Positions 14,309 through 14,771 of a DNA stretch of 64,000 nt are shown in pieces. Source of the stretch: Dictyostelium discoideum (Eukaryota); the NCBI GenBank assembly GCA_000004695.1, contig CM000151.3, positions 7,488,001 to 7,552,000 on the forward strand, given 5' to 3'. Made by a program: the position numbers and the translations under genes. The notes under the pieces are model-generated. The model was not told the DNA's origin, searched no databases, and saw only the letters and a program-made list of their open reading frames with translations. Position 1 is the stretch's first letter; every line of letters begins with the position of its first letter.

Positions 14309-14572
14309 TTATTTTTGTTTTACAAAAGCCATTACTTTTTTTGAAAAATTATTTGTATTAACACCAACTAATGAATCAACTTGTTTATTTCTTTTAAAGA
14401 AAAGGAATAATGGAACATGATTAATATTATCAGATAAAATTTTAGATTCAAAACAATGAATTATATCAACTTGAATATGTGTAATTTCTTTATGTGATGA
14501 TGCAGATGCTTTGAATGATGGTAAAATTTTTTTACACTCTGGGCTAGTTACTGATGAAATAAATACAATAAC
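14309..14572 (-). CDS. Thioredoxin-like protein (monothiol SPEC), exon 2
   Basis: Acceptor 'tttattag'. VIVFISSVTSPECKKILP...VPLFLFFKRNKQVDSLVGVNTNNFSKKVMAFVKQK aligns with thioredoxin 'LVVVDFSATWCGPCKMI...MPTFLFFKNGKKVDELVGANKEKLE', but the WCGPC active site is replaced by TSPEC. Stop at 14309-14311. Total about 110 aa. Confidence 0.7.
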   Translation of the reverse strand, partial: VIVFISSVTSPECKKILPSFKASASSHKEITHIQVDIIHCFESKILSDNINHVPLFLFFKRNKQVDSLVGVNTNNFSKKVMAFVKQK

Positions 14573-14702
14573 CTAATAAATTTTTTAAAAAAAAAAAAAA
14601 ATAAAAAAAAATAAAAAAAAAAAATTATTTATATTAGTTTTTAACATGTAATTTCTAATTTTTAATTTTTAAAAAAATTATTTTCATTGTTTAATTTTTT
14701 AC

Positions 14703-14771
14703 TTTTTGACTTTTATGTTTATTAAAAAGTTCTTCAAATTTTTCAGAAGATGTTGCTTCAAAATATACCAT
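14703..14771 (-). CDS. Thioredoxin-like protein with SPEC (monothiol) active-site motif, exon 1
   Basis: ATG at 14771: MVYFEATSSEKFEELFNKHKSQK, matching the thioredoxin N-terminus pattern MV..I.S..EF.E.L. Donor GTAAAA-type (gt at 14702-14701), phase 0. Confidence 0.7.

What the first reader, a model, noticed from the sequence alone, without database searches (positions are those of the whole stretch)
14309..14771. Thioredoxin-fold protein with SPEC in place of the CGPC active site
The sequence aligns to classical thioredoxin over the full length. The conserved elements are the MV start, the beta-strand VIVFIS, the cis-Pro region and the FLFFK..VD..VG segment. However, the nucleophilic cysteine and the Trp of WCGPC are replaced (TSPEC). 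Only the resolving cysteine is kept. This predicts a redox-inactive or monothiol function, for example a chaperone-like, TRP14/TXNDC-like or regulatory decoy role.
Basis: partly seen in the sequence, partly recalled or inferred. Interest (0 to 1): 0.5.

Follow-up and report, generated by a model that had tools for sequence, protein, structure and literature searches.

The report
Thioredoxin-like protein lacking catalytic cysteine

Summary
On the minus strand, 14771..14309 holds a two-exon gene (exon 1 14771-14703, phase-0 intron 14702-14573, exon 2 14572-14309) encoding 110 aa. It is D. discoideum DDB_G0277099 / UniProt Q550H9, an uncharacterised "thioredoxin domain-containing protein". It passes the Pfam Thioredoxin threshold (36.9 vs 23.5 bits). 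AlphaFold2 gives a canonical thioredoxin fold (pLDDT 87) that superposes on human, shrimp and plant thioredoxins (TM 0.80-0.90). T32-S-P-E-C36 lies exactly on WCGPC. Orthologues were found only in the D. discoideum clade (citrinum, dimigraforme, firmibasis), with the same intron position, the same synteny and an invariant TSPEC. dN/dS is 0.15-0.24, and the protein is more conserved (82-90% identity) than canonical thioredoxins of the same species (61-69%). It is therefore neither a pseudogene nor a splice artefact. The active-site surface is remodelled as a whole, and the protein is basic (pI 9.4), unlike its acidic relatives. The best reading is a thioredoxin-fold protein without canonical reductase activity that acts by binding partners, possibly with single-thiol chemistry at C36 or C63. 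Known precedents are E. coli CnoX (SQHC), TMX2 (SNDC) and PDILT (SKKC). Expression and biochemistry are untested. Interest is low to moderate.

The parts
14703..14771 (-). Exon 1 (codons 1-23, MVYFEATSSEKFEELFNKHKSQK). It encodes beta1 and alpha1 of the thioredoxin fold. The ATG is at 14771-14769.
   Evidence: Searches give the translation and splice model. Exon 1 is 88-97% identical across four species, against 43-71% for the intron and 64-76% for the upstream DNA. It aligns to the N-terminus of thioredoxins.
14573..14702 (-). Phase-0 intron of 130 nt (GTAAAA...TTATTAG), 6% GC.
   Evidence: The intron sits at the same position (after codon 23) with lengths of 70-130 nt in all orthologues and strains.
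14309..14572 (-). Exon 2 (codons 24-110 plus the TAA stop at 14311-14309). It encodes beta2 through alpha4 of the fold.
   Evidence: It is 83-92% identical across species.
14534..14548 (-). T32-S33-P34-E35-C36 (ACT AGC CCA GAG TGT), which takes the place of the WCGPC active site at the N-terminus of helix alpha2.
   Evidence: It is invariant in all nine sequences. Ser33 is AGC or AGT, one base from TGC/TGT (Cys). Synonymous changes occur at both S33 and C36 while the residues are kept.
14453..14455 (-). Cys63 (TGT), the second conserved cysteine. It lies 26 residues after C36 and aligns with Cys62 of human Trx1 and with a Cys in most dictyostelid canonical thioredoxins.
14411..14413 (-). Pro77 (CCA), the position of the conserved cis-proline before beta4.
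   Evidence: It is invariant in all 45 sequences of alignment A2.

Best explanation
DDB_G0277099 encodes a stand-alone, cytosolic (no signal peptide or transmembrane segment is evident), strongly basic thioredoxin-fold protein. It derives from the eukaryotic cytosolic thioredoxin lineage and has lost the canonical dithiol active site (WCGPC to TSPEC). Shown: the fold, the motif replacement, conservation of the replaced motif, and purifying selection. Inferred: the exposed nucleophilic Cys, the Trp cap and its Asp partner are all gone, so the protein cannot perform the thioredoxin dithiol-disulfide exchange cycle and cannot be recycled by thioredoxin reductase. It keeps the scaffold and the cis-Pro substrate-docking loop. 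It therefore most likely works as a redox-inactive 'pseudo-thioredoxin', that is, a binding, adaptor or holdase-type module that recognises partner proteins through a remodelled, positively charged former active-site face. The long stem branch followed by tight conservation within the D. discoideum clade suggests a burst of change (neofunctionalisation) followed by constraint.
For: Fold and family: Pfam Thioredoxin scores 36.9 bits, above the gathering score of 23.5. Solved thioredoxins match at E about 1e-8 over residues 4-103. The AlphaFold2 model has pLDDT 87.3 and b1-a1-b2-a2-b3-a3-b4-b5-a4 topology. Foldseek gives TM 0.80-0.90 to human, shrimp and plant h-type thioredoxins. Motif: TSPEC lies on WCGPC, whereas 40 of 41 canonical relatives have Cys at the S33 position and 34 of 41 have Trp at the T32 position. 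Selection: dN/dS is 0.15-0.24 in all six species pairs. Within the D. discoideum complex there are 13 synonymous and 5 non-synonymous variable sites, against about 64 and 257 sites available. The S33 and C36 codons change synonymously. The intron position and the synteny Rad21 - Hgh1-like - Trx-like - unknown gene are identical in the orthologous loci. The protein is 82-90% identical among the four species, against 61-69% for the closest canonical thioredoxins of the same species. Loss of activity by analogy: E. coli CnoX with its natural SQHC motif has no oxidoreductase activity, and S35C restores it (PMC10998233). Remodelled surface and charge: pI 9.4 and net charge +6 in all four orthologues, against a median pI of 5.3 for 41 relatives, and no Trp. 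It scores far below the NCBIfam 'thioredoxin' equivalog cut-off (28.1 vs 96.8 bits).
Against: There is no biochemical, expression or interaction data. No paper mentions the gene, and six Dictyostelium omics papers' held supplements do not list it. Two cysteines, C36 and C63, are invariant, which would not be required of a purely redox-inert binding module. However, the four species are close, so invariance carries little weight. In TMX2 the cysteine of an SNDC motif is reported to be functionally required, so the loss of the first Cys does not by itself prove the absence of thiol chemistry. One D. discoideum strain carries P41Q at the otherwise near-invariant helix-kink proline, which hints that constraint is not absolute.
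Confidence: 0.55

Rival explanations
1. It is a monothiol redox protein. The thioredoxin scaffold is kept because one of the two conserved cysteines still does chemistry. Candidates are C36 in the SxxC motif, as proposed for TMX2 C170, and C63, by analogy with the extra cysteine of E. coli CnoX. The chemistry could be forming mixed disulfides with client proteins, protecting or resolving sulfenylated cysteines, or sensing oxidants, with resolution by glutathione or a canonical thioredoxin.
For: C36 and C63 are invariant in nine sequences, and C36 shows a synonymous TGT>TGC change with the residue kept. E. coli CnoX has SQHC[N24]C and uses the extra Cys63 to form mixed disulfides with clients (PMC10998233). 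TMX2 has SNDC and its function depends on C170 (bioRxiv 10.1101/2024.04.12.589228). PDILT has SKKC and engages in disulfide-dependent interactions (title of a reference cited in PMC4894388). Ser at the first position is conserved despite a codon change, which is compatible with a helper hydroxyl.
Against: In the thioredoxin fold the second cysteine of the motif is normally buried and poorly reactive (established knowledge). The supporting residues, the Trp cap and the Pro of CGPC, are gone. The spacing to the extra Cys is 26 residues here, as in human Trx1 C35-C62, against 24 in CnoX, so positional equivalence with CnoX Cys63 is not established. C63 is simply inherited from the dictyostelid and animal cytosolic thioredoxin lineage, where many canonical relatives also have it (12 of 41). 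The TMX2 study found neither thiol-peroxidase nor glutaredoxin-like activity for that SxxC domain.
Confidence: 0.3
2. It is a non-functional relic: a recently duplicated thioredoxin gene that lost its active site and is drifting, or a predicted gene that is never expressed.
For: The catalytic cysteine is lost. Orthologues were found only in one young clade. No literature or held omics tables mention the gene. There is a P41Q polymorphism at a conserved proline.
Against: dN/dS is 0.15-0.24, not about 1. The ORF, start, stop and splice sites are intact in nine genomes of four species. The exons are far more conserved than the intron and flanks. The protein is more conserved than canonical thioredoxins in the same species. 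AlphaFold2 predicts a confident, well-packed fold.
Confidence: 0.04
3. It is an annotation or splicing artefact, and the true transcript restores a CxxC motif or a different protein.
For: The AX4 reference model (XP_642953.1, 97 aa) uses a different first exon (MMISFKQYFF), so gene models for this locus do disagree.
Against: The disagreement concerns only exon 1. TSPEC lies 24 nt or more inside exon 2 in both models. No frame or splice choice yields CxxC, since the only TGY codons in the region are C36 and C63. The 110-aa exon 1 is homologous to the thioredoxin N-terminus and conserved as coding sequence, whereas the AX4 upstream 'exon' has an in-frame stop in D. firmibasis.
Confidence: 0.01

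Closest known systems
Canonical cytosolic thioredoxins (human TRX1, shrimp LvTrx, plant h-type, dictyostelid Trx such as T. lacteum KYQ89998.1 and D. discoideum putative thioredoxin-5 DDB_G0287227)
   Same: They share the same fold, the same length (about 105-110 aa, single domain) and the same secondary-structure order. The conserved Pro41 (helix kink), Asp59, cis-Pro77 and Gly93 are kept, and there is a Cys at the human-Cys62 position. The protein shares the 'Y-x-E' N-terminus and an aromatic residue at the E. coli Asp26 position with dictyostelid thioredoxins.
   Different: Identity is only 18-31%. WCGPC is replaced by TSPEC. The Trp31/Asp60 pair and the Thr after the cis-Pro are replaced. 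The protein is basic (pI 9.4), whereas the canonical relatives are acidic. It lies on a long branch outside the dictyostelid Trx clade (85% bootstrap).
E. coli CnoX/YbbN chaperedoxin (Trx domain with SQHC plus Cys63)
   Same: It has a natural Ser-x-x-Cys motif in a thioredoxin domain plus one further cysteine in the same domain. In CnoX this abolishes reductase activity, while holdase and mixed-disulfide functions remain (PMC10998233).
   Different: CnoX has a C-terminal TPR domain that carries the chaperone function and is bacterial. The protein here is a 110-aa single domain. The spacing to the extra Cys is 26 residues, not 24. There is no specific sequence relationship, because CnoX was not among the 60 best PDB matches listed.
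TMX2 (PDIA12), SNDC motif
   Same: It is a eukaryotic, cytosol-facing thioredoxin domain with a conserved SxxC motif whose remaining Cys is reported to be functionally required.
   Different: TMX2 is a multi-pass ER membrane protein. The protein here has no hydrophobic segments and is lineage-restricted, and no specific homology was detected.
PDILT a' domain (SKKC) and the Grx3/PICOT/TXNL2 N-terminal Trx domain
   Same: These are thioredoxin-fold domains that have lost the first cysteine of the motif and act in partner binding and not as reductases (PMC4894388). The TXNL2 Trx domain is among the structural and sequence hits (2diy and 2wz9). That PICOT carries a WAxxC-type motif rests on my own knowledge and on one 'WAPQC' relative.
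   Different: Those are domains of multidomain proteins (PDI a-b-b'-a', or Trx followed by monothiol Grx). This protein is stand-alone.

Membership tests
Thioredoxin family / thioredoxin fold (Pfam PF00085) | Sequence match above the curated Pfam gathering score | tested here: met
   36.9 bits against a cut-off of 23.5, residues 7-101, profile positions 5-99 of 103.
Thioredoxin family / thioredoxin fold (Pfam PF00085) | b1-a1-b2-a2-b3-a3-b4-b5-a4 topology that superposes on solved thioredoxins | tested here: met
   The AlphaFold2 model has pLDDT 87.3 and pTM 0.79 with elements E3-6 H9-19 E23-29 H34-49 E53-59 H67-70 E78-83 E86-92 H96-108. Foldseek gives TM 0.80-0.90 and rmsd 1.6-2.3 A to thioredoxins. 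This is a predicted structure, not a solved one.
Thioredoxin family / thioredoxin fold (Pfam PF00085) | Conserved proline (cis in solved structures) preceding beta4 | tested here: met
   P77 is invariant in all 45 aligned sequences. The cis conformation itself cannot be tested here.
Functional thioredoxin (dithiol disulfide reductase; NCBIfam TIGR01068 equivalog) | W-C-G-P-C / CxxC redox-active dithiol | tested here: not met
   The motif is T-S-P-E-C, with Ser at the nucleophile position in all nine sequences. TIGR01068 scores 28.1 bits against a cut-off of 96.8.
Functional thioredoxin (dithiol disulfide reductase; NCBIfam TIGR01068 equivalog) | Disulfide-reductase activity and reduction by thioredoxin reductase | not testable with these tools
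   This needs an insulin or DTNB assay with recombinant protein.
CnoX/YbbN chaperedoxin | N-terminal Trx domain fused to a C-terminal TPR domain | tested here: not met
   The protein is 110 aa, a single Trx domain ending at a conserved stop codon.
CnoX/YbbN chaperedoxin | SxxC[N24]C cysteine pattern (group C of PMC10998233) | tested here: inconclusive
   SPEC is present with one further Cys, but the spacing is N26, as in human Trx1 C35-C62.
TMX2 | Transmembrane segments preceding a cytosolic SNDC thioredoxin domain | tested here: not met
   The protein has no N-terminal extension. The ATG at 14771 is the first in-frame ATG, and the upstream DNA is not conserved as coding sequence.
Monothiol bacilliredoxin BrxC (PF11009) | Pfam match above threshold, and a motif that keeps the FIRST cysteine (the TCPIS type; the motif is from my own knowledge) | tested here: not met
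   20.2 bits against a cut-off of 24.2. Here it is the first cysteine that is lost.
Peroxiredoxin (PxxxT/SxxC peroxidatic site; motif from established knowledge) | Pro at -7 and Thr/Ser at -3 from the peroxidatic Cys, plus a match to the AhpC-TSA or Redoxin profiles | tested here: not met
   Ser is present at -3 (S33), but position -7 is Ser29, not Pro. No AhpC-TSA or Redoxin hit appears even at E up to 10.
   There is no CxxC, and no Pfam family other than Thioredoxin, BrxC (sub-threshold) and Thioredoxin_2 (sub-threshold) was reported.

The most novel reading that the evidence does not exclude
This would be a stand-alone SxxC thioredoxin that evolved a new single-cysteine chemistry. The Ser33 hydroxyl and the newly basic surface would activate Cys36, in a geometry that mimics the T/SxxC peroxidatic site of peroxiredoxins. 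Alternatively Cys63 would be activated. Either way the protein would act as a sulfenic-acid or oxidant sensor, or as a client-protecting 'chaperedoxin', specific to the D. discoideum clade. It would be a natural, recent example of a thioredoxin being re-engineered into a different redox catalyst.
Probability: 0.07. Interest if true: 0.6.

Novelty: new member of a known kind. Interest (0 to 1): 0.27.

Why it matters
If the reading is right, this is a young and cleanly datable example of a thioredoxin converted into a non-canonical protein of the pseudo-enzyme type. The change is a one-base switch of the Cys codon (TGY) to a Ser codon (AGY), together with a wholesale remodelling of the active-site face and a reversal of charge. 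After that change the protein became more constrained than its catalytic paralogues. Dictyostelium is genetically tractable, so this minimal single-domain protein could be used to ask what SxxC thioredoxin domains (CnoX, TMX2, PDILT) actually do, which the cited literature still describes as unclear (PMC4894388). In practical terms, the AX4 reference gene model for DDB_G0277099 appears to have the wrong first exon. Otherwise this is an ordinary lineage-specific divergent paralogue with no demonstrated function.

Tried and rejected
1. I tried to use synteny to reach older dictyostelids such as D. purpureum, taking the upstream Hgh1-like neighbour as an anchor. The word-indexed search returned no candidates, so I could not test whether an older orthologue with or without CxxC exists at the syntenic position.

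2. I ran two metagenome scans, one with the family alignment and one with a degenerate DNA pattern for PECKKILPSFK. Neither found anything.

3. I looked for expression or proteome evidence. No paper contains DDB_G0277099 or Q550H9. The held supplements of five Dictyostelium omics or mutant-resource papers do not list the gene, and a sixth paper has no held supplements. Those files may have been truncated when stored, so this is absence of evidence only.

4. The first AlphaFold2 run, with only five close sequences, gave pLDDT 51 and a wrong topology. I discarded it. The 45-sequence alignment gave pLDDT 87.

5. The AFDB50 fold library was unavailable.

6. The top non-self hit of the exhaustive HMM search was P0010 (2048 aa, E=5e-20). 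It is an S/T-rich repeat protein in which 14 repeats each score under 10 bits, so the score is a summation artefact and not a relative.

7. I first read the loss of the buried Asp26 (Phe27 here) as part of the inactivation. I dropped this because dictyostelid canonical thioredoxins have Tyr at that position.

8. I tested the conserved upstream block as a possible small RNA. There was no Rfam match, the consensus fold was only -1.5 kcal/mol with no covariation, and the 3' 'D box' is not conserved. An RNA gene is not supported.

9. The bacterial promoter and terminator scan is not informative for a eukaryote.

10. I considered the TRP14, BrxC, peroxiredoxin, CnoX and TMX2 memberships and rejected each on its defining features (see the membership test).

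Full report
**What is there.** The window is very AT-rich (GC about 15-31% per 2 kb) and is Dictyostelium discoideum DNA. On the minus strand, an ATG at 14771 opens a 69-nt exon (14771-14703). It is followed by a 130-nt GTAAAA...TTATTAG intron of 6% GC (14702-14573, phase 0) and a 264-nt second exon that ends with TAA at 14311-14309. The spliced product is 110 aa: MVYFEATSSEKFEELFNKHKSQKVIVFISSVTSPECKKILPSFKASASSHKEITHIQVDIIHCFESKILSDNINHVPLFLFFKRNKQVDSLVGVNTNNFSKKVMAFVKQK. This exact sequence is on record as KAM9946328.1 (D. discoideum). It clusters with XP_642953.1 / DDB_G0277099 / UniProt Q550H9, which is named only "hypothetical protein" or "Thioredoxin domain-containing protein". No paper in the searchable library mentions either identifier.

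**Check of the observation.**
- The protein matches Pfam Thioredoxin above the curated threshold (36.9 vs 23.5 bits, E=3.8e-9, nearly full length).
- It matches dozens of solved thioredoxins (best E=2.5e-8, residues 4-103).
- With a 45-sequence alignment, AlphaFold2 gives a confident model (pLDDT 87.3, pTM 0.79) with the classical b1-a1-b2-a2-b3-a3-b4-b5-a4 order. An earlier run on five sequences was poor and I discarded it.
- Foldseek places the model on shrimp, human, plant h-type and Plasmodium thioredoxins and on the TXNL2/PICOT Trx domain, with TM 0.80-0.90.
- In every alignment T32-S33-P34-E35-C36 lies on W-C-G-P-C at the N-terminus of helix alpha2. The codons are ACT AGC CCA GAG TGT at 14548-14534.

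Among 41 canonical relatives the S33 position is Cys in 40, the T32 position is Trp in 34 and the E35 position is Pro in 40.

- There is a second invariant cysteine, C63, aligned with Cys62 of human Trx1 and with a Cys present in most dictyostelid canonical thioredoxins.
- Other residues of the active-site face are also replaced and fixed: human-Asp60 to Ile/Met, human-Asp61 to His, and the Thr after the cis-Pro to Leu.
- The charge is reversed. The pI is 9.4 and the net charge about +6 in all four orthologues, and there is no Trp. The 41 relatives have a median pI of 5.3 and a median net charge of -3.4.

The structural landmarks are kept: Pro41, Asp59, Pro77 (the cis-Pro position) and Gly93.

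**Is it a real, functional gene?**
- Word-indexed and exhaustive profile searches find orthologues only in D. cf. discoideum, D. citrinum, D. dimigraforme and D. firmibasis (82-97% identity).
- All orthologues have the intron after codon 23.
- The three orthologous species loci examined show the same gene order, Rad21 - Hgh1-like (DUF383/384) - Trx-like - unknown gene.
- TSPEC, C63 and P77 are invariant in all nine sequences.
- Nei-Gojobori dN/dS is 0.15-0.24 in all six species pairs.
- Among five genomes of the D. discoideum complex there are 13 synonymous and 5 non-synonymous variable sites, against about 64 synonymous and 257 non-synonymous sites. These include synonymous changes in the S33 (AGC/AGT) and C36 (TGT/TGC) codons.
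- The exons are 83-97% identical across species, against 43-71% for the intron and 63-76% for the flanks.
- The protein is more conserved among these four species (82-90%) than the closest canonical CxxC thioredoxins of the same species (61-69%). Strict orthology of those canonical proteins was not verified.

The motif lies well inside exon 2 in every gene model. Expression itself could not be checked. The held supplements of five Dictyostelium omics or mutant papers do not list the gene, and a sixth paper has none held.

**Gene model.** The AX4 reference protein (97 aa) begins MMISFKQYFF. That comes from a 30-nt upstream 'exon' at about 15003-14974, spliced directly to exon 2, and it removes beta1 and alpha1 of the fold. 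The 110-aa model is better supported. Its exon 1 aligns with thioredoxin N-termini and is conserved as coding sequence. The upstream 'exon' carries an in-frame TAA in D. firmibasis.

**Relationships.** In the exhaustive search of 1.84 billion representatives, only the protein's own cluster scores below 1e-30. The next hit, P0010, is a repeat-summation artefact. All other hits are ordinary thioredoxin domains at 48 bits or less for single-domain proteins, mostly WCGPC or WCPPC.
- Sporadic SxxC-type motifs (ASPPC, TSLNC, WSNAC, WSFSC) occur in unnamed multi-domain relatives from environmental assemblies.
- The canonical thioredoxin of the dictyostelid Tieghemostelium lacteum is the second-best single-domain match (28% identity).
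- Dictyostelid thioredoxins share with the SPEC protein the Y-x-E start, an aromatic residue at the E. coli Asp26 position and the Cys63-equivalent.
- A neighbour-joining tree nevertheless puts the SPEC clade (100% bootstrap) on a long stem outside the dictyostelid Trx clade (85% bootstrap).

The parent paralogue is therefore unresolved. I could not reach older dictyostelid genomes through synteny or through metagenomes.

**How it most likely works.** It is established knowledge that the thioredoxin cycle starts with attack by the exposed N-terminal cysteine, and that thioredoxin reductase recycles the CxxC disulfide. With Ser at that position neither step is possible.

The closest experimental precedent is E. 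coli CnoX/YbbN. Its natural SQHC motif gives no oxidoreductase activity, and the single S35C change restores insulin reduction. The protein acts as a holdase and uses another cysteine of the Trx domain for mixed disulfides (PMC10998233). Other precedents are TMX2 (SNDC, function dependent on C170, but no peroxidase or glutaredoxin activity) and PDILT (SKQS/SKKC; the functional meaning of SXXC is described as unknown; PMC4894388).

I therefore favour, at about 0.55, a redox-inactive pseudo-thioredoxin that binds partners through a remodelled basic face while keeping the cis-Pro docking loop. The main rival, at about 0.3, is single-thiol chemistry at C36 or C63. A dead gene (about 0.04) and an annotation artefact (about 0.01) are effectively excluded. 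Everything about function is inferred. The fold, the motif, the conservation and the selection are shown.

**Comparison and novelty.** The protein belongs to the thioredoxin fold and Pfam family. It fails the defining CxxC feature of functional thioredoxins and scores far below the NCBIfam thioredoxin equivalog cut-off (28.1 vs 96.8 bits). It is not a member of the CnoX family (no TPR domain), TMX2 (no membrane part), PICOT (no Grx domain), BrxC (sub-threshold, and the opposite cysteine is lost), peroxiredoxins (no Pro at -7, no profile hit) or TRP14.

SxxC thioredoxin domains are an already recognised, if poorly understood, class. The gene is already annotated as a thioredoxin-domain protein. 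I therefore rate it a new member of a known kind, of low to moderate interest. Its particular points are that it is stand-alone, basic, clade-restricted and more constrained than its catalytic paralogues.

**Side observations.** These are listed in the Noticed in passing section. They are a conserved non-coding block of about 75 nt upstream of the gene (15003-14930), the probable error in the AX4 gene model, two DdR11 snoRNA copies, a tRNA-Pro, tandem unknown paralogues downstream, and a P41Q strain polymorphism.

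Noticed in passing
window 14930-15003 (minus strand; about 160-230 nt upstream of the ATG at 14771): A block of about 75 nt (ATGATGATCAGTTTTAAACAATATTTCTTTGTAATATTTTAAAATCATTTTACATT...GTCCT) is almost invariant in D. discoideum, D. citrinum, D. dimigraforme and D. firmibasis. The surrounding intergenic DNA barely aligns, so the block is more conserved than the coding exons. It occurs once in the window. It has no Rfam match and no conserved RNA fold. It is probably a cis-regulatory or leader element of the Trx-like gene, but it remains unexplained.
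   Followed up: partly
window 14974-15003 vs 14703-14771 (minus strand): The AX4 reference model of DDB_G0277099 (XP_642953.1, 97 aa, N-terminus MMISFKQYFF) takes its first exon from inside the conserved block above and skips the exon that encodes beta1 and alpha1 of the thioredoxin fold. That reading frame has a stop codon in D. firmibasis. Newer assemblies annotate the 110-aa model. The reference annotation is probably wrong in exon 1.
   Followed up: yes
window 51236-51311 (-) and 51516-51591 (-): There are two tandem copies of the Dictyostelium C/D-box snoRNA DdR11 (Rfam RF01561, 106.7 and 106 bits against a gathering score of 65), 280 nt apart.
   Followed up: no
window 36451-36521 (+): A tRNA-Pro (anticodon TGG) gene.
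   Followed up: no
window 12743-13720 (-) and 10825-11538 (-): Directly downstream of the Trx-like gene, about 165 nt after its stop codon, lie two tandem paralogues of unknown function. They are 35% identical over 163 aa (E=3e-24) and have no Pfam family above threshold. The first of them is syntenic with the Trx-like gene in all species examined. No functional link to the thioredoxin-like gene was tested.
   Followed up: partly
window 14449-14451 region equivalents in L004 (codon 41) and L005 (codon 31): Natural D. discoideum strains carry non-synonymous variants in this gene. P41Q (CCA>CAA) hits the helix-kink proline that is conserved in 38 of 41 canonical thioredoxins. V31S requires two base changes (GTA>TCA) and sits next to the TSPEC motif.
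   Followed up: partly
window 15745-16242 (-) and 17297-19318 (-): The upstream neighbours on the same strand are an Hgh1-like gene (DUF383, 124.5 bits) and, further upstream, an ORF lying where the orthologous loci have a Rad21/Rec8-like cohesin gene (window ORF; Pfam annotation of the orthologues). The window ORF itself was not scanned. The gene order is conserved in D. citrinum, D. dimigraforme and D. firmibasis.
   Followed up: partly
window 14016-14085 (+ strand as read): A short tandem array of the 10-nt unit AATAATAATT (about 6 copies) followed by an (AAT)n run, just inside the start of the downstream gene region. This is typical Dictyostelium simple-sequence DNA.
   Followed up: no
window 9682-9987 (-): An ORF with an EGF-like domain (PF23106 and PF07974 above threshold) followed by a hydrophobic segment. 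It is part of a neighbouring gene and unrelated to the finding.
   Followed up: no
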